From the NCBI GenBank assembly GCA_949447165.1, contig CASTAV010000003.1:1-49415 (forward strand): a stretch of 49,415 nt of DNA, read 5' to 3'. The translations under genes and the position numbers were made by a program. The stretch is from an uncultured Lachnospiraceae bacterium (GTDB taxonomy: Bacteria; Bacillota; Clostridia; Lachnospirales; Lachnospiraceae). The notes beneath the pieces are model-generated. The model was given only the letters and a program-made list of their open reading frames with translations, did not search any database and was not told the DNA's origin. This document shows, piece after piece, positions 29,654-45,939 of the stretch. Position 1 is the stretch's first letter. Each line of letters begins with the position of its first letter.

Positions 29654-32326
29654 CTAACTGCCCCTATATTGATAACAGATAAAACTCCCCCAATGTTTCG
29701 GCGAACGGTAAAGTAAAAAGTCGTCCCAAAGCCCTTCCATGTAAGAAAAAACATCTTCTTGTATGTTCTCAAAAAACTTTTGATCGGATGTAAGCCTCTC
29801 TTTTACCTGTCCCACTGTTGTGTCCCTCAGTTTTTTTCTCGCAGACTGAAGCGCTGCCGGAATCAAATCCCCCTGATTTAATCTTTCATAAAAATAAAAC
29901 ATAAAAAGCGCCGCCGCTAAATCATCTACTTCCCACAAAGCAGAGACGACATAATGAACTCCCGCAGCGCCAAACGCCACATGAAGCCCTGTCTGCCATT
30001 CAAATTTCGTAAACAGGCTGCTGCCGGAATGACAGGCAGACAAAACCGCTAACTTTGTCCCCGTCAACTGCATTCTGCTTATTTCTTCCGCTGTTAATAT
30101 CCCGTCCCCATATTCAAAAGATTCTTTTCCTGTTTGTAAATAATCTAGCATTCCGGAAAATGCGAGCGAACTTTCATACCATGGATTCTCCTTCTCCTGC
30201 ATATGTATCCCATGGGTGGCAATATGTAAAAAACGGTATCCGGGTTTTAACCGGCGTTTGGAAACTGCCCTCCCGACATAGCATTCACCACCGAAAAAAT
30301 CCGCTATTTTTTCTGCCTCATAACCACTGAACGGAAGCGGCGAAATTTCCTGAATATAGCGGAGCGATGCATTCTGCCCTGTCAGATTTCTATTTTCTGA
30401 CAGGCAAAACGCAGGATTTCCTATGATACAAGATTTCTTCATTGAAGGATTCCCTTCTTGCCAAACTTCAAAAATATCCCGGAAAGATTGAAAATAAACG
30501 ACTGGAATCCCAAAATATCCGCTATCCGCAGCTTCAAACAAAACTTCAAACGGAAGATTGCAAAGACATTGATCCGGAGACGCCCAGATTTGCCCGGCAT
30601 CTTTTAATTCCGTCTCTAATTCTCCGAATATATGGCAAAATAGTTCCCTTGCAAATTTTTTGCAGTTCCCTTTCGCATCCCTGACGCATTGAAGAAACCT
30701 CTGTATGCCTTCTTCCAAGTCAAAGATTTTTTCGATTCTCCGGCAGACAGGCGCTTTTCCTTTTCTTTTTACAAATATTTCCAGACATACATCTTTTTTC
30801 GTAGCCGAAACGGCATTCCCAGACCAAACCGCCTCCCGATCCATATATAAAAACTCTACTAAAACGGCATGTTCTGGCATTTGTTCTTCTAACTTTTGGT
30901 ATGAATAATACGGAATCTCCCCTTTTCGTTTCACCCTGCGGGCTGCGCCAGAGCATCGATTTCTGGCGCGCAGTACAGAACAAAGGATATTTTTATAATT
31001 TATACTATATTCCAGCCTTTTTTCAGAAGACGTGACGTCCATCACAGCCGCATACGCCAAATGAAACGCCGCCTTGCAAATGGTTAAATACTGTTCCATC
31101 TGCGCGTTGTCCTCGTAATACTCCGCCATGGAATAAAACTCAGCCATCTTTTCCAATAAACTGCCCGCGCACCAAAGCAGTTTTTTTTCGTCCGCATTCT
31201 TCTTATACTCGCATATAGCCCTTCCCATAATAGAAAAATATGCTTGCCTGTCCACCTCAAAAATCTCCGCTTTCATAAGCGTAAGAATGCTTTTATCCAG
31301 ATAATGCATCGGATACCGGCCTCCAAGCGCCTTTTCAAAATAATAGCAAAACTGATAAAAACTGCTGCGCGCCCATGGCGCGTAGCTCAAAAACTCCCTG
31401 TCCTGATTTATTTGCTTTTTTACTTTTTCAATTTCCCTAATCTGCTTTTTAGGAATCTTTTGGTTCTTTTGATCCATTTGCAATAAATAACTGCCATACA
31501 CATATAACATATAATCCTCTTTGCAAACGCGCCGGACAAACCCCGATTCCACGCATTTCCGGATAAACGCATATGCTTCGTCAGAGCGAAGCATCGTTTC
31601 CAACAAAACGGCATAATCCGCCACAAGCCTTTGTATATCCAGCATAAATGGACGTATTGCTTCTTTTGCGGCAAGCTTATCCAACAGAAAACGGCAAACT
31701 GTCTCTGCCTGAACAGCTTTACGGGAAAACACATACTGATGCGCCAGATGGACAAGCGCGCAAAACGCATATTGTGACAGAGGTTCTTGCCTATCCAAAT
31801 GCAGAAATACTTTTTCAAGGCTAGCTTCCGCAAGTGACGTTTTTCCCGTTTTTGCATAAAAAACGCCAAGCGCCCCATATACAAAAGCATACAGATCTTC
31901 CCCGTCTAACTCATCCCGCCGTTCCCGTTCCACAAACTCCGCCAATTCGTTCGCCAGACCTTCATAACCGGAAAACGATTCCTGCCTCCCATACTGTTTT
32001 TGGAGTATATGTGCCAAACCTCTGATATACATCTCTTTTATAAGAGAAAATGGCAGTTCCACAGATTCTTTTGCCTGCGCCAAATGCCGGCTTAACGCAT
32101 TGCAGAGAAAATCCATATCCGCTTTTTTATCATATAGCAGATGTAAAATTAACGTATTATATTCCACAATCCAGTCTTTATACGCCTGTGAACCCAAAAA
32201 AGCCGTTTGTCTGGCTTTTTTTAAGCATCGGAACGCTTTTTTTATGTTTCCTTTCCGCTCTGCTTTTGCCGTGGCATCAAGCCAACGGAAGAATTCATTT
32301 CTGTCAGTTTCCATCTGCATCCTCAA
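29654..32326 (-). CDS. TPR-like helical repeat protein with C-terminal CHAT (caspase-like) protease domain
   Basis: 890 aa. The C-terminal ~250 aa carry the CHAT His/Cys dyad blocks FLHIATHG and LAVLSACHSG, and the segment FGAAGVHYVVSALWEVDDLAAALFMFYFYERL matches the CHAT consensus closely. The N-terminal ~600 aa are all-helical repeats. Confidence 0.8.
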   Translation of the reverse strand: MRMQMETDRNEFFRWLDATAKAERKGNIKKAFRCLKKARQTAFLGSQAYKDWIVEYNTLILHLLYDKKADMDFLCNALSRHLAQAKESVELPFSLIKEMYIRGLAHILQKQYGRQESFSGYEGLANELAEFVERERRDELDGEDLYAFVYGALGVFYAKTGKTSLAEASLEKVFLHLDRQEPLSQYAFCALVHLAHQYVFSRKAVQAETVCRFLLDKLAAKEAIRPFMLDIQRLVADYAVLLETMLRSDEAYAFIRKCVESGFVRRVCKEDYMLYVYGSYLLQMDQKNQKIPKKQIREIEKVKKQINQDREFLSYAPWARSSFYQFCYYFEKALGGRYPMHYLDKSILTLMKAEIFEVDRQAYFSIMGRAICEYKKNADEKKLLWCAGSLLEKMAEFYSMAEYYEDNAQMEQYLTICKAAFHLAYAAVMDVTSSEKRLEYSINYKNILCSVLRARNRCSGAARRVKRKGEIPYYSYQKLEEQMPEHAVLVEFLYMDREAVWSGNAVSATKKDVCLEIFVKRKGKAPVCRRIEKIFDLEEGIQRFLQCVRDAKGNCKKFARELFCHIFGELETELKDAGQIWASPDQCLCNLPFEVLFEAADSGYFGIPVVYFQSFRDIFEVWQEGNPSMKKSCIIGNPAFCLSENRNLTGQNASLRYIQEISPLPFSGYEAEKIADFFGGECYVGRAVSKRRLKPGYRFLHIATHGIHMQEKENPWYESSLAFSGMLDYLQTGKESFEYGDGILTAEEISRMQLTGTKLAVLSACHSGSSLFTKFEWQTGLHVAFGAAGVHYVVSALWEVDDLAAALFMFYFYERLNQGDLIPAALQSARKKLRDTTVGQVKERLTSDQKFFENIQEDVFSYMEGLWDDFLLYRSPKHWGSFICYQYRGS

Positions 32327-32885
32327 TAATTTCTATCACAGTTTCCCCATGAAATTCTTCCGTATTTAGGATAACCTGATAACAGTCTTTGTCCGCATGG
32401 TAAACAAAATCATACGTTTTTTCACCATGATCCGTCTGAACCCTGACAACGAAAGCGCCAGCGGAAAATTCCTCTGCATCAAACTGAATCACAACTTGTG
32501 TTTGACTGCATTCTATGAAAGAATACTCGCCCTTTCTGCTGATAAATGTTTCTGTCTGCATTTTTTTGCCGCCGCTTCTGGATGCGGCAGGCATTGGCAG
32601 GCGGACAAATTCCCAGTTTGAATGAAACGTTTCCTTTTTTTGCTGTATCATTTCATAGATTCCCGCCGCTGCTTTTAGGGCAAAAACAACTCTCTTTTCT
32701 GATTCCGGCGGCAGTAAACCATGCGCAGATAATTGTTTTTGCAACACATACTGCGCGCAGAATATCTCATAACAGCGGTCACAATCCGCCATATGTTTTT
32801 TTAACTCTAACTGCCTGTCATTTAAACGTTCCTCTTTTACATAAGCTTCTGAAAGATTCCTAAGATCCTCCTCTGATATGTGCAT
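32304..32885 (-). CDS. zinc-finger (zf-HC2) anti-sigma factor
   Basis: 193 aa with the N-terminal zf-HC2 signature H-x3-C-x2-C (LELKKHMADCDRCYEIF). It sits immediately downstream of a sigma-70-like gene, with a 1-nt spacing. Confidence 0.6.
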   Translation of the reverse strand: MHISEEDLRNLSEAYVKEERLNDRQLELKKHMADCDRCYEIFCAQYVLQKQLSAHGLLPPESEKRVVFALKAAAGIYEMIQQKKETFHSNWEFVRLPMPAASRSGGKKMQTETFISRKGEYSFIECSQTQVVIQFDAEEFSAGAFVVRVQTDHGEKTYDFVYHADKDCYQVILNTEEFHGETVIEIIEDADGN

Positions 32886-33899
32886 TTAACCCTCCCGCCT
32901 GCAAAAGATATCCTCTGCTATGCCAATGCTTTTTTTACGGAATATATTATCCGCTAAAGCAAGTTTTTCTGTTTCATTTTTCAGGTTTTTTGCTATCCGA
33001 AGCGGCCAATTTTTCATTGCGTTTTTGGAAAATGTATCTGTGATGACAAGCTGTTTGACCGGACTGCCCTTATATTCTTTTTCCATATTTTCCTCATAAG
33101 CCCTTCCCCACCGGAATTGACTTTCGCTAAGCGGCTCTAAATGGTAAATTTCCAAAAACTCCCGGTTTAACAGTTCCGACGTCTGCCGATACATTGCGGA
33201 TATGGCAAAGTTCATCAGTATCACGCTGTTTCTAGTGATTTCTCCTTCAAGCCTGCCTGTTTTTTCATTGTAACGCGAAGCATCCCCATCTGTTTTCCTT
33301 GCGCCAATTACGTTTAATTTTTTCAACAGTTCTTTGTTGTCAGTTCGTTTTATTAGCTGTGGAACCAAAATAGCATAACAGTAGGTAAGCGTCTGATAAG
33401 GCGGGGCTTTCGTCTCTTTCAGCGCTTTTACATAAAACTCAAATATGCGGCGTATCACGGATAACCGTTCCTGTTCGATATAAGCGCTTTCCATCTGTTC
33501 CGATTCACCGCCTGTTTCGAATATACCGTTTTCCGGCTCTTTCGGTATAAATTCCTTTTTTGCAAAATGCCTCTTTCTGTAATTTTGGCAGCATATTTCC
33601 GCCAACCCGATCAAATACCCATAAAACCCTTCTGACGTCACTTTTTCAGGAAACCCGCGAAACGCCAGCTTCATCACTTCCATCCGGATTTCCTGCATCA
33701 CATCATCTAACGCTTCCGGCTGGCATATGCCATATGCGCGAAGCCTTTTTGCCGCCATTTCATAGGTATTGTCGCTTAAAATCTGAAGCGCTTTTTCCAA
33801 TGCGGATTTATCATTCCGCATTATCGGATCATATAAACGGCTTATGGCGCGCCCGGCATCCTCTCCTTCATAAAGCGCCTGATTATTTTCCTTTTCCAT
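32886..33899 (-). CDS. sigma-70 family (ECF-like region-2 N-terminus) sigma factor-like protein with extended C-terminal region
   Basis: 337 aa. A region-2-like segment ALDDVMQEIRMEVMKLAFRG...FYGYLIGLAEICCQNYRKR is present. It is paired with the downstream zf-HC2 anti-sigma factor. The length is atypical for an ECF sigma. Confidence 0.4.
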   Translation of the reverse strand: MEKENNQALYEGEDAGRAISRLYDPIMRNDKSALEKALQILSDNTYEMAAKRLRAYGICQPEALDDVMQEIRMEVMKLAFRGFPEKVTSEGFYGYLIGLAEICCQNYRKRHFAKKEFIPKEPENGIFETGGESEQMESAYIEQERLSVIRRIFEFYVKALKETKAPPYQTLTYCYAILVPQLIKRTDNKELLKKLNVIGARKTDGDASRYNEKTGRLEGEITRNSVILMNFAISAMYRQTSELLNREFLEIYHLEPLSESQFRWGRAYEENMEKEYKGSPVKQLVITDTFSKNAMKNWPLRIAKNLKNETEKLALADNIFRKKSIGIAEDIFCRREG

Positions 33900-33900
33900 A

Positions 33901-34494
33901 TTATTCTCCCGAAATTAATGCTGAAAACTCAATGATATGGTCTGCAAACCCAAATACGACCGCTTCTTTTGCCCTAAAAAAATGATCATATCCGGTTGCC
34001 AGTTCAATTTCTTCTTCTGTCCTTCCCGTATGTTTCGATAGAATTTGTATCAGCCGTCTCTTTGTCTCTAAAATCATTTCCGAAACTGAGCAAATCGTGG
34101 AACTGCTTCCTTGCACCGGATTCCCTAAAAGCGGTTCGTGCGCCATCAATTCACTGTTTGCAAGCATATAGCGGTTTCCTTTTGGGGCGGCGGCAAAAAT
34201 AACTGCGCCCATACTGTACGCTTTTCCCAGACAATACATTTTTAGCGGAGTCTGGCAAGTGGCAACTGCATCGTAAATGAGCAGTCCACTGTTTATTTCC
34301 CCTCCCCGCGTGTTTATCATAATCCGGATTGGAAGATATTTGTCTTCCACAGTTAAAACCATTAATTTTTTGATAAACTCCATTGCCGCCGCATCGTCAA
34401 TTTCCCCTTCTAAAAAAATAGTCCGCTCTCCAAACAAACAAGTTTCTAAAGGAACCAGCGAAATGCCGTTACTGCTTTTCTTCTGCATATCCAT
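33901..34494 (-). CDS. ClpP-family serine protease (catalytic triad intact)
   Basis: 197 aa. ERTIFLEGEIDDAAA, INTRGGEINSGLLIYDAV, GKAYSMGAVIFAAAPKGNRYMLANSELMAHEPL and a downstream YDHFF segment are present. These align with E. coli ClpP blocks including S97 (GQAASMG), H122 (MIHQP) and D171. Confidence 0.7.
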   Translation of the reverse strand: MDMQKKSSNGISLVPLETCLFGERTIFLEGEIDDAAAMEFIKKLMVLTVEDKYLPIRIMINTRGGEINSGLLIYDAVATCQTPLKMYCLGKAYSMGAVIFAAAPKGNRYMLANSELMAHEPLLGNPVQGSSSTICSVSEMILETKRRLIQILSKHTGRTEEEIELATGYDHFFRAKEAVVFGFADHIIEFSALISGE

Positions 34495-35785
34495 ATCTAT
34501 AACCCCCTGCTTTTATATATTGGTTTATTTGCTTTTGCATTTTTGATTCCTGATCCATCTGTAAAAGTTTTTGATACTCTCTGTCCTTTAATGTTTCATA
34601 GCGCTGTGTCACAATCGGCTTTTGCCCGCGCCGAAAAATATACTCCTGCCCGATTGGCATGGAAAGCACGTCTTCTAGCGGCTGGTTTAACCGCTGGCTG
34701 ATGGATTTTGCCGTTTGTATGTCAACTCCGCCCATATAAATATAAGTGTCGGAATTGTTGATGATAGTCTTTGCATCTTTTTCCCCATATATGGAATCCA
34801 ACTGGCTTTCGCTTTGGAGAAGCAAGGTGACGGAGATCCCTTTTTCCCTGAATATTGAAATGTATTCAGCAAAATTCGCGATTTTTGATCCACAGGCAAA
34901 ATCGTCGCACAGCACATGCACTGGGCGGTTTAACTGGCCAGATTCATTTTTTTCTCCGATTTCAAATAATTCTTTAAACATCTGGCTGTAAAAAATATTT
35001 ACAAAACTGTTTAGCGATGGGTTCACCGGAGAAGTTGTGACAAATAAAAGGGTTTTTTCATCGGATATTTTTTTAAAATCCACCTTTTCCGCTTTTTGCA
35101 TCATTCCACAGAGTTGTGGGGTAAAAATCGTGTTTAAAGCTACGGAAAGCGTAGAATAAATACAACTGGAAGTGCGGACAGGCATCTGATGGAAAGAATC
35201 CCAACAGCAAATAGCAAAACAATGCGGATCAGCCTGCCGGATCACCTCAAAATCTTCATCAAGTGAAGTTTCTATCAGATCACTGCCTTTTATAATGCGT
35301 AAATCTTTAAACAGGGATATTACATCTGCCATAGTTCCGTGTTCTTTTGTCATCAGCACATGGGCGATCAGCGCTGACAACAGGCTTATGCTCGCATGAT
35401 CCCAATATGGGTCTGAACTTGAATTTTTTTTCCTGCTGTCTGCCATAACGATTGCTTCCGCAAGATAAGTAACGTCTGTCCAGCTCTTAAGATATTGAAG
35501 CGGATCATAGGAAATTTCCGATTTTTCTGGAGAAACAAAGTTCAGATCTAGGACTTTATAGCCCCTTGTCTGAAAAAGTTTTATGTATTTTGCAATCAGC
35601 CTGCGTTTGGACAAAGTCATAATCAGACTGGAATGATAAGTATGCAGCAGCCTTGGCTCTGAAATAGACATCGTCTTTCCTGAGCCACTGCTTCCACAAA
35701 CAAGGACATTGTTATTAATCTTCGTTTCCCTGCAGTCTGCGCTAAATACTGCATTTTTCCCTAAAACAACAGTATCTTTTCTCAT
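34469..35785 (-). CDS. soluble TraG/TraD/VirD4-family (type IV coupling protein-like) P-loop ATPase
   Basis: The start is the MRKDTVVLGKN methionine (ATG 35783-35785), with a GGGAGG RBS 7 nt upstream. It overlaps the upstream gene's stop as ATGA. Walker A VLVCGSSGSGKTMS is present. The C-terminal T4CP block VLCDDFACGSKIANFAEYISIFREKGISVTLLLQSESQLDSIYGEKDAKTIINNSDTYIYMGGVDIQTAKSIS matches the TraG-D_C pattern (LDEF..lgkip.....RsrGi...lilQs.sQL...YG......i..n.......G..d..Ta). There is no N-terminal TM segment. Confidence 0.55.
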   Translation of the reverse strand: MRKDTVVLGKNAVFSADCRETKINNNVLVCGSSGSGKTMSISEPRLLHTYHSSLIMTLSKRRLIAKYIKLFQTRGYKVLDLNFVSPEKSEISYDPLQYLKSWTDVTYLAEAIVMADSRKKNSSSDPYWDHASISLLSALIAHVLMTKEHGTMADVISLFKDLRIIKGSDLIETSLDEDFEVIRQADPHCFAICCWDSFHQMPVRTSSCIYSTLSVALNTIFTPQLCGMMQKAEKVDFKKISDEKTLLFVTTSPVNPSLNSFVNIFYSQMFKELFEIGEKNESGQLNRPVHVLCDDFACGSKIANFAEYISIFREKGISVTLLLQSESQLDSIYGEKDAKTIINNSDTYIYMGGVDIQTAKSISQRLNQPLEDVLSMPIGQEYIFRRGQKPIVTQRYETLKDREYQKLLQMDQESKMQKQINQYIKAGGYRYGYAEEKQ

Positions 35786-36297
35786 AACGGCGCCTCCCAG
35801 AACGGATTTAAACGAATTTGGCTCAGTTTTAGACTGGTTTTTGATCCGACCGCTCCTTGTTTTAGAATGTTCTGTACACATTCTGCATAATTCATGGTAA
35901 TATTTGTTGCAAAACGGAACACAGACTGCAAATTTTCTATAAAACCATTTACGCTTTCCCTTCCTTTCGGCTGGTACAGCATCATCTGGTATTCTGCCAC
36001 CAAATCATTCTCGTTTGTCATATAAATGCGCATGTACAGCCATTCATTCTGCAAATCGTTTATCAATTTATAAATTTCCCTATGACGGTTCTCTGGAATC
36101 CCTTCTGCAAGACATGTGACAATCCGGATAATTTTACTTTTCTCACTTACGGATACATTCATCTTTAGGGAATGGCAGGGGTTGCCATAAGATAAACTAT
36201 ATTTGATAAATCCTTCTTTGTCGCGCTCCTCTGTGTTCGATACTTTCCCAAATTGGTTTAATACTTGTTTTACAATTTCCTGATAAGCGGCTGCCAT
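35782..36297 (-). CDS. first gene of the operon; possible YbjN-family (T3SS-chaperone-like fold) protein
   Basis: 171-aa acidic protein with an AGGAGG RBS 7 nt upstream. The family assignment is weak, from the pattern only. Confidence 0.3.
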   Translation of the reverse strand: MAAAYQEIVKQVLNQFGKVSNTEERDKEGFIKYSLSYGNPCHSLKMNVSVSEKSKIIRIVTCLAEGIPENRHREIYKLINDLQNEWLYMRIYMTNENDLVAEYQMMLYQPKGRESVNGFIENLQSVFRFATNITMNYAECVQNILKQGAVGSKTSLKLSQIRLNPFWEAPL

Positions 36298-36378
36298 AAG
36301 CTTTCCTCCTTTTTACATTCTCATAGACTATATGGCGGCTTACCAAACATTTACTCAAATTTTATTAAATTTTCCCTT

Positions 36379-36522
36379 CCGTCTTTTTGCTTTTCTTTCG
36401 CTGTCTTTTTTATTTTTCTTTCTCTATCTTTTTTGTTTTTCTTTCGCTGTCCTTTTGCTTTTCTTTCGCTGTCTTTTTACTTTTCTTTCGCTGTCTTTTT
36501 ACTCTTTTCGCTTTTTATGACT
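36379..36522. repeat. six imperfect tandem copies of a ~22-bp unit (gtctttttgcttttctttcgct) in the intergenic region upstream of the vault-like operon
   Basis: Direct reading: gtctttttgcttttctttcgct / gtcttttttatttttctttctcta / tcttttttgtttttctttcgct / gtccttttgcttttctttcgct / gtctttttacttttctttcgct / gtctttttactcttttcgct. Confidence 0.7.
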
Positions 36523-36540
36523 TATTTTTATGCGATTCCA

Positions 36541-37401
36541 TTAAAATTTCTTTTTTATTGTTTTCTTTTTATATCCCGATTTTTTAATCTGCGCTTTGAC
36601 CGTAATGCCTTTTAGCTTCTTTCTAAACTTAATTTTTGCATTTCCTTTTTTGTCTGCTTTTACAGTTTTAGAAGATTTCCCAAGGAACGATTTCTTTGCC
36701 CTGACTTTAACTCTTGCGTTTGGAACTGTTGTTATTTTTAACGTTTTTCCCTTTTTTGAAATTTTTGCCATTACCACCTGCACTTGATAGGTCGCTTTTA
36801 GTTTCCCAATTACAGCTTTAATTGTCACAGAGCCTTCCTTTAATCCTTTTATCTGCCCGGAAGGGGATACGGACGCCACTTTAGGGTTAGAACTGCTGTA
36901 AATTGGCTTTAAGCTTGTAATTTTTCCAAGGGAACCCATAACGGAAGCTTTCTGCGTCAAGGTATGCCCGGCTACCAGCGTTTTTTTCTTTTTTGAAAAT
37001 GTAATTGATTTTGGCTGGTTGGATACAACGGTCACTTTATAAGAAGCGGATAATTTTCCAGTTTTTGCAGTAATTACCGCCACTCCCGGCGCAATTCCTA
37101 ACACTGCGCCCGATGCGGATACAGACGCTGCTTTGGGATTGGAACTGCTGTATGACGGTTTTATATCATTGCGTACCCCCGCATCGTCTTTGACTACCGC
37201 TTTTTGCGTCATAGATTCCCCTGCCATAATTGTAACGCTTGATTTTAAAAATGAAATCTCTTTTGGCTTATGTGACACTGCGATATTAACTGTAGCTCGC
37301 CTGCCGCTTGTCGTCTTCGCAATAATGGTAACACTTCCCACTCCTTTTGCCGTTACCTCCCCAATGCTGTTCACCTCCGCAATGCCAGTATTGGAACTTT
37401 C
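36541..37401 (-). pseudogene. in-frame continuation of the LRR protein past the TAG: two to three Big_2 domains + Lys-rich C-terminal tail (no start codon of its own; the ORF track begins at a GTG)
   Basis: It is in the same frame as the upstream ORF. Reading through the stop gives ...ANTTDAVI*ESSNTGIAEVNSIGEVTAKGVGSVTIIAKTTSGRRATVNIAV, which completes a Big_2 domain. Further Big_2 units follow (SSSNPKAASVSASGAVLGIAPGVAVITAK; SSSNPKVASVSPSGQIKGLKEGSVTIKAV), then a KKGKTLKI...KKKTIKKKF tail. Confidence 0.5.
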
Positions 37402-38733
37402 CTATATAACTGCGTCGGTTGTATTCGCCGGCGTAATGGCATAAGTCAGCAGCCGCGTATCATCTACATTCATATAAATCGTTCCCGCAGAAAATTTAAT
37501 GCTGGAACTTGGAACTGCTTTTAATAAAACAATGGGATTCCCTTTCGCTGACGCATATTTTTCGGCTTCTGATCCGGCATAACATTTTATCGTCACTTCA
37601 TTACTGCATATTTGATAATAATGATCCTGCATATTTATTACGCTGTTCGGAATCAAAATGCTGCTTAGGGCATTGCAACTATTGAACGCCGCATATTCAA
37701 TTTGTGTAACCGTATTTGGAACTGCAACGCTTATAAGAGAACTGCATCCAGAAAAAGCGGTTCTTCCAATCTTTAACAAACGATTTGATAAACCTATCTG
37801 CTTTAAAGACGTACATCCTGCAAATGAAGACTCTTCCAAATACCTTACGCTTGATGGAAGTGTAACTTTTACCAAACTAGAACAGCCGCTAAATGCTTCC
37901 GTGCCAATTGAAATTCCGGTATTGCCATTTGCAATCGAAACATTTTTTAATGAAGAACACTGCTCAAATGCGTTATAACCAATATTGGCATTTGCCCCAA
38001 TGGAAACCGTCGTTAGATTCTTATTACCTGCAAAAGCATATCCGGATATAGACGTATGAACAGATGCACTTACTAAATTTTGACAATTATTAAAAGCACT
38101 TCTGTCCATTTCAACAGATGCCGCAACATTGACGCTTGTTAATCCTGTATTTTCAAAGCTACCTATGCCTAAATATGTAAGCGTTGACGGAAAAACACAG
38201 CCGTTTAACTTTACACAATTTTGAAAAGCATAATATCCTATTGACGTAAGCGCAGTTCCAAGAGAAACGCTTCGCAAATTTCCACAATTAGAAAAAGCGT
38301 ACCTACTTATAGACACTACATTTTTCATTCCATAAATAGCTGTCAGATTTCCGCAGCTCTGAAAACTACCGTAACCGATACTTGTAACCGTATCCGGTAT
38401 ATTAACAGATATCACCCAATCATTATATTCAAAAGCCCAATTACCAATCGCCGTTACTTTTTTTCCGGCTATCATGCTTGGAATCACTACATTTTCTTCT
38501 ACTCCTGTATATTTTGTTATAACAATATTGGAATAATCTCCTTCTTTATATTGCCAAAAACCAAATACGCCGTTTCCTTTCGCCATTTCCACAGTTTCTT
38601 CCCTGACAGTCTCCTCTGCATTCACCATCTCTGTCCCAGAAAAAAACATAAGAACCGCAAGCAACGCAACAAATAATATCCTTTTTTTCATAATCACTTT
38701 CCCCTTTCTACCGATAACCCATTTCTTCCTCAT
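37402..38733 (-). CDS. BspA-type leucine-rich-repeat (LRR_5) cell-surface protein, N-terminal part (ends at an in-frame TAG)
   Basis: The signal peptide KKRILFVALLAVLMFFSGTEMVNA is followed by many ~22-aa repeats of the type I(P/G)..VTSIG..AF..C..L. The ORF stops with TAG at 37402-37404 in the middle of a Big_2 domain. Confidence 0.7.
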   Translation of the reverse strand: MRKKWVIGRKGKVIMKKRILFVALLAVLMFFSGTEMVNAEETVREETVEMAKGNGVFGFWQYKEGDYSNIVITKYTGVEENVVIPSMIAGKKVTAIGNWAFEYNDWVISVNIPDTVTSIGYGSFQSCGNLTAIYGMKNVVSISRYAFSNCGNLRSVSLGTALTSIGYYAFQNCVKLNGCVFPSTLTYLGIGSFENTGLTSVNVAASVEMDRSAFNNCQNLVSASVHTSISGYAFAGNKNLTTVSIGANANIGYNAFEQCSSLKNVSIANGNTGISIGTEAFSGCSSLVKVTLPSSVRYLEESSFAGCTSLKQIGLSNRLLKIGRTAFSGCSSLISVAVPNTVTQIEYAAFNSCNALSSILIPNSVINMQDHYYQICSNEVTIKCYAGSEAEKYASAKGNPIVLLKAVPSSSIKFSAGTIYMNVDDTRLLTYAITPANTTDAVI

Positions 38734-39754
38734 AATCGAGAATCAGATACAAATTCTGCTTCTCATATTCATTTAACAAGCTGTCTTTAAAATCTTCCGG
38801 CTTAATAGAACCATGATACCAATCTTTTTCATCAAAATAATTTTGCAGCGCTTCATCATCAAACAACCGCCCATACCTCGCATAGACTTCATTCCTAGCC
38901 AAACGAAGCTCCTCTTTTCCTAACCCCTCTATATCCGATCTGTCCAGATACCGTGCGCCACTGTCCGGAATTATATAATCTTTCTCTTTTTCCTGCCGTT
39001 TTGTTTCTTTCGTCACTTTCACAGGCTGGCTTCCTTCCACTGTCGTATCCCATTCACAGATATATCCGCCCCTGCTTACTGTTTCATCATCATTCCCAAG
39101 GTCGTCCCACTGCCCTTCATCAATCCGATAACCATACCCGCTCCTTTCTCCATTACAGATTGCCCCGTAGCACTGTCCATAACTTCCATCAGGCTCCCCT
39201 TCTCCCCAATTCGTATAAGAAACAGGCTCTCCCGTCACCCATGTTTCCCATGGCTCCCGAATGCCTATCCAAAGATCACAGTCAAATCCCACATATTGAT
39301 TGATATATCCATAGACTGCTTTCTGTTCTTTTTTGGAGGCAATGGTAAGCAAATGCCCTCCTCTTTCTTCACATTTTTCTTTCGCCTCCTCCCATGTAAT
39401 GCCGCCAGCCTGTTCAAAATAATAATAGCTGTGCCCCTTATATTCGAAACAATCCGTAGGTATATGGAGGCTTTCCGTTTCATTCTGTTTGTTTTCCTGT
39501 TTAGTTTCCCACTCATCTTCCTTTTGGCTCTGCTGTTCTGCCTCCGATTGCTGTTTTGCTTCTTCCATGCGCTTCTGCTCTGCTTTTTGCTCTTTTGATT
39601 CCGCTAATGCAGTTTCCACTTTCGGTTTCAATTTTTTTATCCCATAGCGGACCCCCGCCGCAATCACTGCCGCCGCCACTGCGGCAAATACCGCCATCGC
39701 AAGCAGCATTTTTTTCATATCCTGTTTTCTGTAATTTGATAACTTCAACCTCAT
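38708..39754 (-). CDS. type-II membrane protein with C-type lectin-like domain and C-terminal YARHG domain
   Basis: N-terminus MRLKLSNYRKQDMKKMLL followed by a TM helix and a Q/E-rich coiled-coil. The CTLD is C..KGHSYYYF......W..A...C...GGHL..I.S..E...V.......WIGI......W.W..GEP..YTNW..GEP....C.......W.D..C....YICEW. A YARHG-like segment is present (NEVYARYGRLFDDEALQNYFDEKDWY). Confidence 0.7.
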   Translation of the reverse strand: MRLKLSNYRKQDMKKMLLAMAVFAAVAAAVIAAGVRYGIKKLKPKVETALAESKEQKAEQKRMEEAKQQSEAEQQSQKEDEWETKQENKQNETESLHIPTDCFEYKGHSYYYFEQAGGITWEEAKEKCEERGGHLLTIASKKEQKAVYGYINQYVGFDCDLWIGIREPWETWVTGEPVSYTNWGEGEPDGSYGQCYGAICNGERSGYGYRIDEGQWDDLGNDDETVSRGGYICEWDTTVEGSQPVKVTKETKRQEKEKDYIIPDSGARYLDRSDIEGLGKEELRLARNEVYARYGRLFDDEALQNYFDEKDWYHGSIKPEDFKDSLLNEYEKQNLYLILDYEEEMGYR

Positions 39755-39784
39755 TCTCCTTACTTTATTCCAAGCGCCAGCCGC

Positions 39785-40429
39785 TTAAAGAGCGAATATA
39801 AAAAGCATTAGAACTGCTGTATTCAATATAATACCCACAAGCGCCAAAGCCCCTCCCTGCTCCTTTCTGGCTCTCACGCCCAGAATCAATCCAAGAACAG
39901 CCATCCATAAAACTCCCCGAAAAGACAACACGCCTAAAACTACCGCCGCCACTGCTTTTCCATTTACTCTATTCTCCTCTGCTTCTCTTTCCTGCCCAAA
40001 GCCCTGAACATTCTCCTCTGCACTCTCTAAATCAGAAGATGCCGTTTCCGCAGTTTTCGCCTGTAACGCTTCCCCATTTCTGTTTAACCCACAAATATCC
40101 AAATAAACCTTACACCGGACGTCATCCTGATCCGCTCCGGCTTTCCAATACATTTTTGCCAGCCCAAAATTTTGCGCGCAGCAAATACCCGTCATATAGC
40201 ACCAGCCAAGGAAACGGTTGGTTTTATAATCATTCTGTTCGTTCTCGCATACTTCCCGGAAATATACTGATAAACGCGCTTCTATCAAATCTTTATCCGT
40301 ATCCTCTGCCGCATATTTGGCAAGCGTCATAAAGGCATTTCCATCTCCTTTAACGGCAGCTTTGCACAGCCAGTCCAAACAATCTTCTTTATCGCCTTTC
40401 TGCATACAAATCAGGCCAAAAAAATACAT
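39785..40429 (-). CDS. Sel1-like repeat protein, C-terminal part with TM segments (frameshifted continuation of 40411-41184)
   Basis: Sel1-like units (WLCKAAVKGDGNAFMTLAKYAA; AKMYWKAGADQDD) followed by two hydrophobic helices. The ORF start lies inside a T7 tract. Confidence 0.5.
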   Translation of the reverse strand: MYFFGLICMQKGDKEDCLDWLCKAAVKGDGNAFMTLAKYAAEDTDKDLIEARLSVYFREVCENEQNDYKTNRFLGWCYMTGICCAQNFGLAKMYWKAGADQDDVRCKVYLDICGLNRNGEALQAKTAETASSDLESAEENVQGFGQEREAEENRVNGKAVAAVVLGVLSFRGVLWMAVLGLILGVRARKEQGGALALVGIILNTAVLMLFIFAL

Positions 40430-41184
40430 GGATTCTGAATAGCCGCATTCTGCAGGAAACCGGAGATATTCTTCCGCTTTTTTAAGTCCTTTGGAACTTC
40501 TTCCCCTTTTATATACATCTCGCCCAATTCCTGCGAACTTAAAGCATCCCCTTCCTTTACTCCCAGTAATAAAAGCTTTATTTTTTTATCCGTATCCGTC
40601 AGTTGAAATGCTTCTTCCCAATAATGCCGCGCCGCTTCATTTGACTTTTTCTCCTCTTTTTCTAAAAAACGCAAAAACGCTTCCTGAATCTTAGGATTCT
40701 CAATATGTTTTCCATAATCGCTCTTTGTCTGGCTATAATTCTTCACTTTAACAGGAATATCTCCATGAAGCGCGCTTTGTATCTGCGCAAACATTTCATT
40801 AACTGCGCCCGTATTAAAAATATAATTAGCGTCTGTGCCCAGATCTGTAAACGAATCTACACTGATGCAATCCTCATACTTCTCAAATTGCGCTTCATGG
40901 AAGGCGCCCGCTTTATAATAGATACCATCAAAGCCAAATACCATTCCTTCTTTGCCGTTACTTGAAGATACAATAATAAAAATATCTTCTTTTTTTAGAG
41001 ATGGATATTTATATTTTACATTTCCGATTTTATACAACGCGCCCTCTATAACTTTCACAGGAACTTCTTCCCCAAAACTCCACTTATAAACCTCCCCGTA
41101 GTTGTCCCTGAGTATTTTTTCGCAGTAGTTAAGAATTATCCTACAGATTTTCTCCATTTCCTGTCTGGAATAAATGAGATTCAT
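40411..41184 (-). CDS. Sel1-like repeat protein, N-terminal part (reading frame breaks at a T7 homopolymer)
   Basis: 257 aa. The C-terminal region begins Sel1-like repeats (LGEMYIKGEEVPKDLKK). The ORF ends ...CIFLA* within tgtatttttttggcc. A +1 T would fuse it in frame to the downstream ORF as ...PCIFFGLICMQKGDKED. Confidence 0.5.
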   Translation of the reverse strand: MNLIYSRQEMEKICRIILNYCEKILRDNYGEVYKWSFGEEVPVKVIEGALYKIGNVKYKYPSLKKEDIFIIVSSSNGKEGMVFGFDGIYYKAGAFHEAQFEKYEDCISVDSFTDLGTDANYIFNTGAVNEMFAQIQSALHGDIPVKVKNYSQTKSDYGKHIENPKIQEAFLRFLEKEEKKSNEAARHYWEEAFQLTDTDKKIKLLLLGVKEGDALSSQELGEMYIKGEEVPKDLKKRKNISGFLQNAAIQNPCIFLA

Positions 41185-41201
41185 GTGTTTCTCCCCCTAT
41201 T

Positions 41202-42317
41202 TTATGAAATGCTTTCCCCCTGAATACAAGACTGTATCGCCAGAAGCGTCCCATAATCATGTTGGTCTAATCTCTCTGCCCCCTTTGTCTCAAGCCTTCG
41301 TAATTGAATCACCGCCGACGCTTGTACACATAATTTGAAAAATTCACACAGCCACTTGCTTCTGTTCGAAACAGAGCCTGTATAAATATAATTCACCCCG
41401 TAACAAGTCGGGCAGACAAAATGATACTTACATTCCACGCAGCGTTTTTCTTCGTGAATATCCGCTGCAGGCAATTTATAATCCACAAATTTCCCCGCTT
41501 CCTCTCCCAGCCCGACCGGGCTAAAGGAATGGCAGGGATATAACTTTCCTTCCGTGTCATACGCTTTCATCAACTCTCCAGCCCCACATCGCTTAAACCC
41601 GGCGTCTGGTTTTTTCAGGATTCCAGTCAAATCAATATTTAATATCTGGCATAAAGGAAGGTTTGGATTTTCAGTATAATACGCCACTAATTTATCAAGC
41701 TGTCCTTTTAGCCCGTGTATTAAATCATCGCTCCATTCCAGACCATATGCAAACGTACACCCACATGGAAACCCTTTTTCATGGATAAAGATAACGCCTT
41801 CTGCCAGACTGGGAAGCGTCTCTTTTGACACAGTCATCTTCACATTCTGTCCTGGCCAGCATTCCCTAAAAAAATCCAAATCAATGCGGTCAAAAGAATC
41901 CGAACGGTTCTGATTGTGCATTTCTCTTGTCCCATCTAGGCTGATTCCACAGTAGATGTGTTCCTTCCGCTCTCTAAGCCACTGCTTCATTTCCGCGTCA
42001 AGCAATGTTCCATTTGTATTCACAAAAATAACTGCCTTTTTTCGCCACTTTGGCATATTCGACTCAATATAGCCATAAATCTCTTTAATTATCTGCTTTT
42101 CTAAAAATGGCTCGCCGCCAAACAATGTAAACCTGCATTCGTCCGCGCCGTCTTCCATTGACATTTCCGCATCGATAATCTTTTTTGCCGTCTCAAATTT
42201 CATTCTCTTATCCGATTTATAATGTTCAAAACAATAAGAACATGACAGATTGCAGCCTTCTGTCAAGATCAGCATGACTTCTTTTAACATACCTCTATCG
42301 CCCCCGTTTCTTTGCAA
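41202..42317 (-). CDS. radical SAM / SPASM-domain peptide-modifying enzyme
   Basis: CxxxCxxC cluster (CNLSCSYC) near the N-terminus and a C-terminal SPASM-type Cys cluster (CVECKYHFVCPTCYG). Confidence 0.8.
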   Translation of the reverse strand: MQRNGGDRGMLKEVMLILTEGCNLSCSYCFEHYKSDKRMKFETAKKIIDAEMSMEDGADECRFTLFGGEPFLEKQIIKEIYGYIESNMPKWRKKAVIFVNTNGTLLDAEMKQWLRERKEHIYCGISLDGTREMHNQNRSDSFDRIDLDFFRECWPGQNVKMTVSKETLPSLAEGVIFIHEKGFPCGCTFAYGLEWSDDLIHGLKGQLDKLVAYYTENPNLPLCQILNIDLTGILKKPDAGFKRCGAGELMKAYDTEGKLYPCHSFSPVGLGEEAGKFVDYKLPAADIHEEKRCVECKYHFVCPTCYGVNYIYTGSVSNRSKWLCEFFKLCVQASAVIQLRRLETKGAERLDQHDYGTLLAIQSCIQGESIS

Positions 42318-42371
42318 ATATGCAGGAAAAGACTTCTCTTTTCCTGCATTTTTCTGTAATGCCGTTTCCTC

Positions 42372-42545
42372 TTACCTCACATCACAGGCTGTCCACACAG
42401 AAATCCCATGTCCTTTGCAGCTTCCGGAACAGGAATCGCAAGCGCTGGAAATTACGATGTTTTCGATTGAAAGTTCACCGAATTTCTTTTCACAGACGTC
42501 AAGCATACTCTGTAAAGCAAATTTTTCTTCTTTTGTCATTGCCAT
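42372..42545 (-). CDS. candidate Cys-rich RiPP precursor peptide (ranthipeptide/sactipeptide-like) for the adjacent rSAM-SPASM enzyme
   Basis: 57 aa, MAMTKEEKFALQSMLDVCEKKFGELSIENIVISSACDSCSGSCKGHGISVWTACDVR. An AAAGGGGG SD lies 8 nt upstream of the ATG at 42543-42545. The peptide has five Cys, four of them clustered in the C-terminal 20 aa, and it sits 55 nt upstream of the rSAM gene. Confidence 0.45.
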   Translation of the reverse strand: MAMTKEEKFALQSMLDVCEKKFGELSIENIVISSACDSCSGSCKGHGISVWTACDVR

Positions 42546-43392
42546 AACATTCACCCCCTTTCCAAATGTTTCTCTTTTTATAATCCAGAGCCATTCCTCT
42601 CTCCAGTAATTCCATCAAGCCGCTTTTTTCCTCCAATTCTGTACGCAGGCGGCAGGAAAACACGTCACAATCCAACCGCTCCTCCGCCCCCGGAGGCGCA
42701 GCGTTTGCCAGACAAAAATACCATGTCGCATAAAAGGCATAGATATCCGTCCATACGCCATACATGCCTCCCTTTTCATATTGTTCCGGCGGGCTAAAGC
42801 CGGTTCGGTAAGTTGGTTCTTCAAGCTGCTGTTTTCGGCTGTTTAAATCCAATGCAGATCCAAAATCAATCAGTCCCACTTCTTTTGCTTCTGTAACAAT
42901 AATATTGTCAGGACAAATGTCCCTATGGATAATTCCATGTCTATGTATCTGCTCCAAACTTTTTTGAAGGGATTCCATCAGTACATAAGATTCTTTCGCT
43001 TCCATTCTTCCATTTTTCTGAACCATCTCGCGTAACGTCATGCCCTTACAGCGCCCCATAACGATATAAGCCGTATTATTTTCCAAAAAAAAGTCCTGGA
43101 TTTTAACAATCCCCTCAATATTTTTTAATTTTTCCAGAATAGATGCTTCATGGATAAACATGTCATATTTGCCGCTGTTATTTTTGAAAAAAACCTGAGA
43201 CGTTTCACCGCGGTATGCTTTTCCATATGGAAAATACTCCTTAATCACGACATCCTTATCCTGCGCAAAATCTACCGAAAGATAAGAAATCCCAAAACCG
43301 CCCTGCCCAATCATTTTTTTTATACAATATCTATTCTGAAGGATCTTGCCACTGTTTAAAAGTTTCCTCCCCCTATATAACCGATCTCCCAT
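42499..43392 (-). CDS. Hanks-type Ser/Thr protein kinase domain protein (atypical catalytic loop HRDICPDN)
   Basis: Glycine loop IGQGGFG, beta-3 Lys VVIKEY, HRD catalytic loop, DFG (IDFGSA) and an APE-like TGFSPPE. Confidence 0.75.
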   Translation of the reverse strand: MGDRLYRGRKLLNSGKILQNRYCIKKMIGQGGFGISYLSVDFAQDKDVVIKEYFPYGKAYRGETSQVFFKNNSGKYDMFIHEASILEKLKNIEGIVKIQDFFLENNTAYIVMGRCKGMTLREMVQKNGRMEAKESYVLMESLQKSLEQIHRHGIIHRDICPDNIIVTEAKEVGLIDFGSALDLNSRKQQLEEPTYRTGFSPPEQYEKGGMYGVWTDIYAFYATWYFCLANAAPPGAEERLDCDVFSCRLRTELEEKSGLMELLERGMALDYKKRNIWKGGECYGNDKRRKICFTEYA

Positions 43393-43454
43393 GCCAGTTT
43401 CGCCTTTTCAAAATTCTTTTATTCACCAATGACAGAAAACAACGCCGCTTTTCC

Positions 43455-43865: not shown

Positions 43866-43933
43866 ACTTTCACCTCATCTATTTTCTGTCATTCCTATCA
43901 TTTCTGTCATTGGCAAATAAAAAATTTTCTCTT

Positions 43934-45606: not shown

Positions 45607-45655
45607 TTTTCTTTTCCACCATTTTTTCCAAACAATATACAACGTTCCATATTTT

Positions 45656-45925: not shown

Positions 45926-45939
45926 TTTTTCTCCACCGT

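What the first reader, a model, noticed from the sequence alone, without database searches (positions are those of the whole stretch)
32304..33899. Dedicated sigma-like / zf-HC2 anti-sigma pair embedded mid-operon
A 337-aa protein with a sigma-70 region-2-like N-terminus is followed 1 nt later by a cytoplasmic anti-sigma factor with the H-x3-C-x2-C zinc motif (HMADCDRCYEIF). Placing a regulatory switch between the ATPase/ClpP genes and the CHAT/MVP genes suggests the downstream half, and possibly the 1390-aa surface protein, is conditionally expressed. The sigma is unusually long for an ECF.
Basis: partly seen in the sequence, partly recalled or inferred. Interest (0 to 1): 0.55.

Follow-up and report, generated by a model that had tools for sequence, protein, structure and literature searches.

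The report
Sigma-like/anti-sigma pair tied to CHAT protease
Two adjacent genes encode a sigma-factor-like protein that lacks the usual second DNA-binding domain and a zinc-type anti-sigma partner; across many gut Firmicutes the pair travels with a caspase-like CHAT protease, so it looks like an undescribed protease-gated transcription switch of the kind recently found in bacterial immune systems.

Summary
The 337-aa protein (X, 32886-33899, minus strand) has a genuine sigma-70 region-2 domain. The 193-aa protein that starts directly after its stop codon (Y, 32304-32885) has an N-terminal zinc anti-sigma (ZAS) domain. Its ligands H2/H31/C35/C38 are invariant in 14 relatives, and its best PDB match is RsiW.

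Genes from the chaperone to CHAT overlap or are 0-1 nt apart, and no internal promoter or terminator was found. The MVP and the 1390-aa protein are not conserved neighbours.

What is conserved is the trio X + Y + TPR-CHAT protease, in either gene order. It was seen in 11 of the 16 different loci examined, counting this window. A soluble VirD4-like ATPase + ClpP module accompanies it in a subset. Distant relatives sit beside TIR/STAND, DO-GTPase and DarT-type genes.

Best model: CHAT cleaves Y and releases X onto RNA polymerase. This resembles Craspase (Csx29-Csx30-CASP-sigma) and DdvA-DdvS. It is a new variant of a known kind, and the mechanism is inferred, not shown.

The parts
36329..36357 (-). 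Conserved bipartite promoter-like motif TGAGTAAAT-N11-CGCCATATA, about 30 nt upstream of the chaperone gene start.
   Evidence: The same motif (TGAGTAAAT-N10-11-CG[CG][CT](T)ATATA) precedes the chaperone/VirD4-like/ClpP module in L004/5, L011-13, L014, L016 and L017, whether X-Y lies upstream or downstream of that module. It occurs once per locus. It is not a good sigma-A promoter. Assigning it to X is inference.
35782..36297 (-). 171-aa T3SS-chaperone-like (TY-Chap1/YbjN) protein.
   Evidence: Pfam PF22551, E 3e-7. It is fused to the VirD4-like ATPase as one ~650-aa protein in L004, L011 and L014. Here the two are coupled by an ATGA overlap.
34469..35785 (-). Soluble VirD4/TraG-like ATPase (start taken at ATG 35785).
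   Evidence: Pfam T4SS-DNA_transf 1.5e-36 and TraG-D_C 4.5e-19. NCBIfam conju_CD1115 234 bits, below its 250 cutoff. No hydrophobic segment.
33901..34494 (-). ClpP-family serine protease.
   Evidence: Pfam CLP_protease 4.9e-47. Ser (AYSMG), His (MAHEP) and Asp (GYDHF) are present in the translation. It always follows the VirD4-like gene in related loci.
32886..33899 (-). X: 337-aa sigma-like protein. Sigma-2 domain at residues ~15-115 (33555-33857); novel C-terminal domain at residues 131-335 (32895-33509).
   Evidence: Searches support sigma-2. Searches find no sigma-4 and no known fold for the C-terminal domain. The family has 132 clusters at 50% identity, and none of the members read carries a name from its source.
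32304..32885 (-). Y: 193-aa soluble anti-sigma-like protein. ZAS domain at residues 1-55 (32721-32885) with the H31-x3-C35-x2-C38 motif at 32772-32795. Conserved linker W91..R103-S-G (32571-32615). Beta-rich C-terminal domain (32316-32558).
   Evidence: Alignments A2, A5, A6 and A7. RsiW is the top PDB hit, E 0.0023. R103 is conserved in at least 90% of the wider family. The C-terminal domain gives only weak alpha-crystallin-like hits.
29654..32314 (-). TPR-CHAT caspase-like protease (CHAT domain 29672-30658; catalytic His705 and Cys765 in 890-aa ORF numbering).
   Evidence: Pfam CHAT 2.9e-38. The dyad motifs HIATHG and LSAC are conserved in 9 homologues. The best PDB sequence relative is DdvA, 8rot_B, E 0.0024 with a family profile. 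It is adjacent to X-Y in 11 of 16 different loci, counting this window.

Best explanation
X and Y are a cognate pair. X is an RNA-polymerase-binding sigma-2-type factor whose sigma-4 domain is replaced by a novel ~200-aa helical domain. Y is a soluble zinc-binding (ZAS) anti-sigma that holds X inactive.

The pair is one module of a cytoplasmic, protease-gated switch. Its third conserved component is the TPR-CHAT caspase-like protease.

Proposed sequence of events, all inferred:
1. An unknown trigger, most likely linked to phage or another genetic conflict, activates CHAT.
2. CHAT cuts Y in its conserved linker. The candidate site is after the near-invariant Arg103, motif A-[AS]-R|[GS].
3. The remaining anti-sigma domain is removed. 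Where present, this would be done by the co-encoded chaperone / VirD4-like ATPase / ClpP machine, playing the part ClpXP plays for RseA.
4. Freed X loads onto core RNA polymerase and redirects transcription. A candidate target is the conserved TGAGTAAAT-N11-CGCCATATA element in front of the ATPase-ClpP(-X-Y-CHAT) operon, which would give positive feedback.

Shown here: the domain identities, the conserved zinc ligands, the intact catalytic residues and the conserved gene linkage. Inferred: X-Y binding, cleavage of Y by CHAT, the role of the ATPase/ClpP pair, promoter recognition by X, and the trigger.
For: **Sigma-2 domain in X:**

**ZAS domain in Y:**
- H2/H31/C35/C38 are invariant, the same ligand arrangement I recall for ChrR and RsiW-type ZAS domains.
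- RsiW is the top PDB hit.

**Tight coupling:** TAAATG junction between X and Y, and an 11-nt Y/CHAT overlap.

**Conserved linkage:**
- X-Y are adjacent in 15 of the 16 different loci read; in L011 a Sel1-like gene sits between them.
- CHAT is adjacent in the window, L001, L004, L009, L011, L014, L015, L018, L020, L022 and L024, in both gene orders. This holds down to relatives with E ~1e-13 to the X profile.
- The CHAT dyad is conserved.
- Every locus with CHAT has a long Y (194-216 aa, with linker and C-terminal domain). The two loci with a short Y (89 and 104 aa: L019, L051) lack CHAT.

**Fusion precedent:** DdvA carries a ZAS domain and TPR-CHAT in one protein, and it is the closest solved relative of this CHAT.

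**Mechanistic precedent:** Csx29 (TPR-CHAT) cleaves Csx30 to relieve inhibition of CASP-sigma, and the cleaved fragment is unstable, with an explicit parallel drawn to RseA/ClpXP (PMC10028731).

**Conflict-system company in distant relatives:** TIR + nSTAND1, DO-GTPase2, NADAR-DarT1.

**Promoter-like motif** that tracks the ATPase-ClpP module.
Against: - No sigma-4 or other DNA-binding domain is detectable in X, so promoter-specific initiation is unproven.
- Pfam zf-HC2 is below threshold for Y.
- L016, L017 and L050 have a long Y but no CHAT in the flanks read.
- X, Y and ClpP have no PADLOC hit, and CHAT hits only BovA weakly.
- The motif's -10-like block (CATATA) also resembles sporulation-sigma -10 elements as I recall them, so it may belong to another sigma.
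- The motif is absent upstream of X in L001, L009 and L015.
- The trigger is unknown.
Confidence: 0.5

Rival explanations
1. X is not a promoter-specific sigma. It is an RNA-polymerase-binding effector, a sigma mimic. Once released from Y, its sigma-2 domain occupies the sigma-binding site on core polymerase and shuts down or stalls transcription. That would be an abortive-infection or dormancy output, and the novel C-terminal domain would do something other than read the -35 element.
For: - Sigma-2 is present but sigma-4 is undetectable.
- The minimal conserved system has only three genes (L001, L009, L015), so one of them must be the output.
- Relatives sit among TIR, STAND and DarT-type conflict genes.
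- No X-type promoter was found in loci that lack the ATPase-ClpP module.
Against: - The sigma-2 region keeps the region 2.3/2.4-like motif FYGYL..LAE....NY used for -10 recognition in ECF sigmas.
- A conserved non-sigma-A promoter-like element exists beside the module.
Confidence: 0.2
2. The signal runs the other way. Y is itself the sensor, for example a thiol/redox-sensitive ZAS domain like RsrA. When Y releases X, X switches on the protease genes (CHAT, VirD4-like ATPase, ClpP), and these are the effectors.
For: - The zinc ligands are conserved.
- The conserved promoter-like motif sits in front of the ATPase-ClpP module, and in L016/L017 it lies downstream of X-Y.
- A single-gene CHAT defence (BovA, which I recall as the Borvo system) is the only PADLOC relative of this CHAT.
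- L016, L017 and L050 lack CHAT.
Against: - In the window and in L004/L011/L014, X, Y and CHAT lie inside the same translationally coupled operon as their supposed targets.
- This model does not explain Y's conserved linker Arg and extra C-terminal domain, which appear only where CHAT is present.
- In DdvA and Craspase the CHAT acts upstream of the sigma.
Confidence: 0.15
3. One reading: an ordinary dedicated ECF sigma/anti-sigma pair, placed mid-operon so that the downstream CHAT, MVP and 1390-aa surface protein genes are expressed conditionally from an internal ECF promoter.
For: - Sigma-2 and ZAS domains are present.
- Surface-protein genes (lectin/YARHG, LRR, Big_2, transglutaminase-like lipoprotein) recur around X-Y loci, so an envelope-related regulon cannot be excluded.
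Against: - There is no sigma-4.
- There is no intergenic space or promoter between Y and CHAT: an 11-nt overlap and nothing distinctive in the scan.
- CHAT is upstream of X-Y in four loci.
- MVP and the 1390-aa gene are unique to this lineage.
- The only conserved motif lies upstream of the whole operon.
Confidence: 0.07

Closest known systems
Type III-E CRISPR 'Craspase': Csx29 (TPR-CHAT) - Csx30 - CASP-sigma/RpoE (PMC10028731)
   Same: A cytoplasmic TPR-CHAT protease is genetically linked to a soluble sigma inhibitor and a sigma factor. The proposed logic is the same: cleavage of the inhibitor relieves the sigma, and the cleaved fragment is then degraded.
   Different: - This locus has no Cas7-11 or CRISPR, so the trigger cannot be guide-RNA target binding.
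- Nothing here indicates that Csx30 is a ZAS protein, whereas Y is.
[quoted passage not shown]
- A dedicated ATPase + ClpP is present here.
DdvA-DdvS of Myxococcus xanthus (PMC11506125; PDB 8rot)
   Same: A ZAS anti-sigma domain is functionally joined to a TPR-CHAT protease with a His-Cys dyad and controls a sigma factor in a defence context. DdvA is the closest solved sequence relative of this CHAT.
   Different: - DdvA is one transmembrane protein with a periplasmic CHAT, and it relies on RseP intramembrane proteolysis.
- Here the ZAS protein and CHAT are separate and have no membrane segments.
- DdvS is described as an ECF sigma.
- DdvA-like proteins were reported only in Myxococcota and one Comamonas species; this family is in Lachnospiraceae and Eubacterium.
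SigW-RsiW and other ECF / ZAS anti-sigma pairs (RsrA-SigR, ChrR-SigE)
   Different: - X lacks sigma-4, which ASDs normally clamp together with sigma-2.
- From memory, RsiW is membrane-anchored and removed by regulated intramembrane proteolysis.
- Y is soluble and has a distinct C-terminal beta-rich domain.
CalpL-CalpT-CalpS (type III CRISPR SAVED-Lon protease / anti-sigma / ECF-like sigma)
   Same: A tripartite protease + anti-sigma + sigma-like effector module in an immune system (abstracts).
   Different: The protease there is a Lon family member switched on by cyclic oligoadenylate through a SAVED domain. Neither SAVED nor a cyclase is present here.
Phage T4 gp55 (late sigma without sigma-4)
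   Different: There is no sequence relationship in the C-terminal part, and no X relatives were found in viral contigs. From memory, gp55 needs gp33 and the sliding clamp; no such partners are evident here.
ECF54 group (ECF sigmas with CHAT proteins in their conserved neighbourhood; PMC8999054)
   Same: A bioinformatic association of a sigma factor with CHAT-domain proteins, with regulation by proteolysis proposed.
   Different: ECF54 is described as lacking an anti-sigma factor. Here a ZAS anti-sigma is invariably present. As ECF-group members, ECF54 sigmas would be expected to carry sigma-4, which X lacks.

Membership tests
Sigma-70 family, group 4 (ECF) sigma factor | Sigma-2 domain (regions 2.1-2.4) | tested here: met
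- hhalign to RpoE: 93% probability, E 2.7e-7.
- All four PDB profile hits are ECF sigmas.
- 34 of 108 relatives hit Pfam Sigma70_r2.
- X itself scores below Pfam reporting.
Sigma-70 family, group 4 (ECF) sigma factor | Sigma-4 domain (regions 4.1-4.2, helix-turn-helix that reads the -35 element) | tested here: not met
   - No Sigma70_r4 or r4_2 hit in X. Only 2 of 108 relatives hit these models.
- The C-terminal domain profile has 0 PDB hits at E<=10.
- hhalign against RpoE sigma-4 gives 0.2% probability.
- The alignment to RpoE stops at residue 137, before the LPEDL motif.
Sigma-70 family, group 4 (ECF) sigma factor | Binds core RNA polymerase and directs promoter-specific initiation | not testable with these tools
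   The only lead is a candidate promoter-like motif.
ZAS (zinc-binding) class I anti-sigma factor, Pfam zf-HC2 PF13490 | H-x3-C-x2-C motif plus a fourth upstream His/Cys ligand in an N-terminal helical anti-sigma domain | tested here: met
   H2, H31, C35 and C38 are invariant in 14 diverse homologues and near-invariant across the wider family.
ZAS (zinc-binding) class I anti-sigma factor, Pfam zf-HC2 PF13490 | Significant sequence match to the family model or to a solved member | tested here: inconclusive
   Pfam zf-HC2 scores 13.4 bits against a 22.2 cutoff; the best of 6 homologues has E 0.022. The N-terminal profile has RsiW as top PDB hit at E 0.0023 over residues 6-43.
ZAS (zinc-binding) class I anti-sigma factor, Pfam zf-HC2 PF13490 | Encoded next to, and binds, its cognate sigma | tested here: inconclusive
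   Adjacency and translational coupling are met in 15 of the 16 different loci read; in L011 another gene intervenes. Physical binding and zinc content cannot be tested here.
TPR-CHAT protease-gated sigma switches (Craspase, DdvA type) | CHAT domain with catalytic His-Cys dyad | tested here: met
   Pfam CHAT 2.9e-38. H705 and C765 are conserved in 9 homologues.
TPR-CHAT protease-gated sigma switches (Craspase, DdvA type) | Conserved genetic or physical linkage of CHAT to an anti-sigma and a sigma | tested here: met
   CHAT is adjacent to X-Y in 11 of 16 different loci counting this window, in both gene orders.
TPR-CHAT protease-gated sigma switches (Craspase, DdvA type) | CHAT cleaves the anti-sigma on a defined signal (target RNA for Craspase) | not testable with these tools
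   No Cas7-11 or CRISPR gene is among the genes identified around the module here. The conserved linker Arg103 is only a candidate cleavage site.
Known anti-phage defence systems (PADLOC-DB 2.0) | Match of the components to a catalogued system | tested here: not met
   X has no hit. Y has only a chance-level hit (E 0.014). CHAT hits BovA weakly (5.6e-7) and the ATPase hits mad8 weakly (7.6e-8).

The most novel reading that the evidence does not exclude
X founds a new class of sigma-like factors. The ECF-type sigma-2 domain is kept, but sigma-4 is replaced by a novel, conserved ~150-200-aa domain that gives a new way of recognising promoters or capturing RNA polymerase.

It would be controlled by a free-standing, CRISPR-independent caspase-like protease cascade in Firmicute immune islands. 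In that cascade a soluble VirD4-like coupling ATPase with a T3SS-chaperone-like substrate domain has been recruited as the unfoldase partner of ClpP, which would be a new type of ATP-dependent protease.
Probability: 0.2. Interest if true: 0.8.

Novelty: new variant of a known kind. Interest (0 to 1): 0.6.

Why it matters
Protease-released sigma factors have recently emerged as an output of bacterial immunity (Craspase, CalpL-T-S, DdvA-DdvS), but what they switch on and why is still unclear.

This family would be a compact, CRISPR-free, fully cytoplasmic version in common gut Lachnospiraceae. It is about 130 clusters at 50% identity, and none of the members read carries a name from its source. 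That makes the logic testable with three or six genes.

It also raises two specific structural questions:
- How does a sigma-2 domain work, or how is it held by a ZAS domain, without sigma-4?
- Can a membrane-less VirD4-type ATPase feed ClpP?

For annotation, X and Y have no family-level annotation: no Pfam match above threshold and no name from any source. They could be given provisional names.

Tried and rejected
- **Pfam, NCBIfam and PADLOC on X and Y.** Nothing above threshold.
- **Word-index homologue search for Y alone.** It found only near-identical copies. Neighbours of X homologues had to be used instead.
- **afdb50 fold search.** It was not available.
- **Internal promoter or terminator scan of 22800-37500.** Nothing distinctive.
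- **Metagenome-wide scan for the promoter-like motif.** 25 exact matches, none next to a homologue of any locus protein, so they are chance hits.
- **X relatives in viral contigs.** None.
- **Rfam on the whole window.** None.
- **Literature searches** for a description of this trio or of a VirD4-ClpP pairing. None found. The eLife 2020 conflict-systems paper does not mention sigma, VirD4, ClpP or vault in its main text.
- **MVP or the 1390-aa protein as part of the system.** Rejected because neither is present in any other locus.

Full report
**1. What is there**

All long ORFs of the window are on the minus strand. Around the finding, the order in the direction of transcription is as follows.

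| Gene | Coordinates | Identification |
|---|---|---|
| Chaperone | 35782-36297 | 171-aa TY-Chap1/YbjN chaperone-like protein |
| ATPase | 34469-35785 | VirD4/TraG-like ATPase |
| ClpP | 33901-34494 | ClpP |
| X | 32886-33899 | 337 aa |
| Y | 32304-32885 | 193 aa |
| CHAT | 29654-32314 | CHAT protease |
| MVP | 27249-29642 | Protein with MVP shoulder domain |
| Surface protein | 23062-27234 | 1390 aa, Big_2/Flg_new |

The junctions are very tight:
- The chaperone and ATPase genes share an ATGA overlap.
- ClpP and X are 1 nt apart.
- X and Y are joined as TAAATG.
- Y overlaps CHAT by 11 nt.
- The CHAT-MVP gap is 11 nt and the MVP-1390 gap is 14 nt.

None of the proteins from the chaperone to MVP has a segment hydrophobic enough for a membrane helix.

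**2. X has a real sigma-2 domain but no sigma-4**

X has no Pfam hit, and only a weak NCBIfam hit to a sigma factor model (E 1e-3, residues 52-121). Its family is small in the word-indexed search: 14 clusters, aligned as A1.

Evidence for sigma-2:
- The A1 profile finds only four PDB sequences, all ECF sigmas (RpoE and AlgU type, E 0.016-0.03).
- hhalign against E. coli RpoE gives 93% probability, E 2.7e-7, aligning X 22-155 to RpoE 10-137.
- Typical motifs are present: DDVMQE, AFRGFP and FYGYL..LAE....NY.

The exhaustive profile search finds 132 clusters at 50% identity, mostly 280-370 aa. Of 108 members scanned, 34 hit Pfam Sigma70_r2 and only 2 hit a region-4 model.

Evidence against sigma-4:
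- The alignment to RpoE stops just before the sigma-4 LPEDL motif.
- The same model finds nothing in BFVD.
- A profile of 18 diverse C-terminal domains has no PDB hit at E<=10.
- That profile does not align to RpoE sigma-4.

The C-terminal domain is nevertheless conserved across the whole family. Two blocks are shared, P..L..CYA..LP and S..WA...M...T...L....WG....VxT..F....NW. The close family also has an insertion of about 45 residues.

X is therefore sigma-like. It is not a canonical ECF sigma.

**3. Y is a ZAS-type anti-sigma-like protein**

Y alone scores below the Pfam zf-HC2 threshold. The evidence comes from its relatives:
- The genes downstream of X homologues form one family of 194-216 aa.
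- In 14 diverse N-termini, H2, H31, C35 and C38 are invariant.
- The same ligands persist next to distant X relatives (L018, L020, L022, L024, L019, L050).
- The N-terminal profile has a single significant PDB hit, the zinc-binding anti-sigma-W factor RsiW (E 0.0023, residues 6-43 aligned, including HLETCEKC).
- RsiW's partner SigW is among the best structural matches of X.

After the ZAS domain comes a linker with a conserved W-x-F...A-[AS]-R-[GS] motif, in which R103 is conserved in at least 90% of sequences. A beta-rich C-terminal domain follows, with only weak alpha-crystallin-like similarity.

**4. What is conserved around the pair**

*X-Y and CHAT.* X-Y are adjacent in 15 of the 16 different loci read, counting this window. 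In L011 a Sel1-like gene sits between them. A TPR-CHAT protease of about 890-1200 aa is adjacent in 11 loci:
- Downstream of X-Y in the window, L001, L004, L009, L011, L014 and L020.
- Upstream of X-Y in L015, L018, L022 and L024.

The catalytic motifs HIATHG and LSAC are conserved in the nine homologues aligned. The closest solved sequence relative is DdvA (8rot_B), at E 0.068 for the single sequence and 0.0024 for a profile.

*The ATPase-ClpP module.* The chaperone / VirD4-like ATPase / ClpP module occurs in two positions:
- Upstream of X-Y in the window, L004, L011 and L014, where chaperone and ATPase are fused except in the window.
- Downstream of X-Y in L016 and L017.

L019 has only a VirD4-like gene upstream of X; the gene that follows it has no ClpP or other Pfam hit.

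*Other neighbours.* Distant members sit beside TIR + nSTAND1 (L019), DO-GTPase2 (L051) and NADAR-DarT1 (L050). The MVP and 1390-aa genes occur in no other locus.

*Y length and CHAT.* Every locus with CHAT has the long form of Y. The two loci with short Y forms (89 and 104 aa) lack CHAT. Three loci with a long Y show no CHAT in the flanks read.

*Hosts.* The hosts identified are Lachnospiraceae and Eubacterium genomes. No X relative was found in viral contigs. None of the X or Y cluster members read carries a name from its source.

**5. A conserved promoter-like element**

A bipartite motif, TGAGTAAAT-N10-11-CG[CG][CT](T)ATATA, lies about 30-75 nt upstream of the chaperone/ATPase start. It is present in the window (36357-36329), L004/5, L011-13, L014, L016 and L017. 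It follows that module whether X-Y is upstream or downstream of it, and it occurs once per locus.

It is a poor sigma-A promoter: the only TATAGT-like hexamer sits 20 nt from TTGAGT. It is a candidate X-dependent promoter.

Three points caution against that assignment:
- Its CATATA block also resembles sporulation-sigma -10 elements as I recall them.
- It is absent upstream of X in loci without the module.
- Upstream of X in L001, L006 and L016 I read sigma-A-like hexamers by eye.

A metagenome-wide scan for the motif returned only chance matches.

**6. Most likely mechanism**

The anatomy matches protease-gated sigma switches described in bacterial immunity.
- In type III-E systems the TPR-CHAT protease Csx29 cleaves Csx30, which otherwise inhibits CASP-sigma. 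The cleaved fragment is unstable, and the authors draw a parallel to RseA and ClpXP.
- In M. xanthus a ZAS domain and a TPR-CHAT are fused in DdvA, which controls the ECF sigma DdvS and a defence island.
- CalpL-CalpT-CalpS is the Lon-protease version.

I therefore propose the following chain. Y sequesters X. CHAT, activated by an unknown signal, cuts Y in the conserved linker, with R103 as the candidate site. The remnant is destroyed by the dedicated ATPase/ClpP pair where it is present. X then engages RNA polymerase.

Only the domain assignments, the conserved residues and the gene linkage are shown. Every biochemical step is inferred.

The main rivals are:
- X is a sigma-mimic effector rather than a true sigma, which is favoured by the missing sigma-4.
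- Y is the sensor and the proteases are the regulated output, which is favoured by the position of the motif in L016 and L017.

**7. Comparison and novelty**

Compared with known systems:
- It works like Craspase or DdvA-DdvS, but it is not a member of either. It has no Cas7-11 or CRISPR, no membrane anchor, a separate soluble ZAS protein and a sigma-like protein without sigma-4.
- It is not a member of the ECF family in the strict sense, because sigma-4 was tested and not found.
- ECF54 sigmas are known to have CHAT neighbours but are described as lacking anti-sigmas.

I found no paper describing this trio or a VirD4-ClpP pairing.

This is a new variant of a known kind and moderately to highly interesting (0.6).

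Noticed in passing
window 36381-36500 (repeat unit read on the minus strand: AAAAAGACAGCGAAAGAAAAGC): A 22-nt tandem repeat of 5.4 copies (86% matches) lies in the 244-nt intergenic region, about 25 nt upstream of the conserved promoter-like motif. It is absent from the equivalent region of L004, L011 and L014. It could be a regulator-binding array or simply a slippage product.
   Followed up: partly
window 27249-29642 (-): A 797-aa bacterial protein has a major-vault-protein shoulder domain (PF11978, 4.9e-21) and a weak Vault_3 repeat. It lies 11 nt downstream of CHAT on the same strand, preceded by its own ribosome-binding-site-like sequence. One source labels a cluster member 'major vault protein'. 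It was not found next to X-Y in any other locus.
   Followed up: partly
window 34469-36297 (-); L004 7429-9381, L011 7423-9381: A VirD4/TraG-type coupling ATPase with no membrane segment is preceded by, or fused to, a T3SS-chaperone-like (TY-Chap1) domain. In the six loci where the ClpP gene was identified it always follows. This may be an undescribed ATP-dependent protease pairing. No literature on it was found.
   Followed up: partly
window 38708-49077 (-); L004, L011, L014, L015, L020: A set of upstream genes recurs near X-Y loci: an NMN-adenylyltransferase-like gene (77% identity, directly upstream of the ATPase in L004, L011 and L014), a radical-SAM/SPASM maturase-like gene, a Ser/Thr kinase, Lectin_C/YARHG membrane proteins, and a transglutaminase-related lipoprotein (50-60% identity even beside the distant X relative in L020). 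The island may be larger than the six-gene module and related to the cell surface.
   Followed up: partly
L011 11044-12339 (also L012, L013): In one lineage a 431-aa Sel1-repeat-like gene is inserted between X and Y. This is the only case seen where the pair is not directly adjacent.
   Followed up: no
L019 and L051: Some distant X relatives have a much shorter partner that consists of little more than an anti-sigma domain. The 89-aa partner in L019 carries the zinc motif. The 104-aa partner in L051 has no His/Cys motif. These loci lack CHAT and instead carry TIR + nSTAND1 or DO-GTPase2 genes.
   Followed up: partly
window 23062-27234 (-): A 1390-aa predicted surface protein with Big_2, Listeria-Bacteroides repeat (Flg_new) and CarboxypepD_reg domains lies 14 nt after the MVP-like gene on the same strand. 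BspA-type LRR and Big_2 proteins lie just upstream of the module.
   Followed up: no
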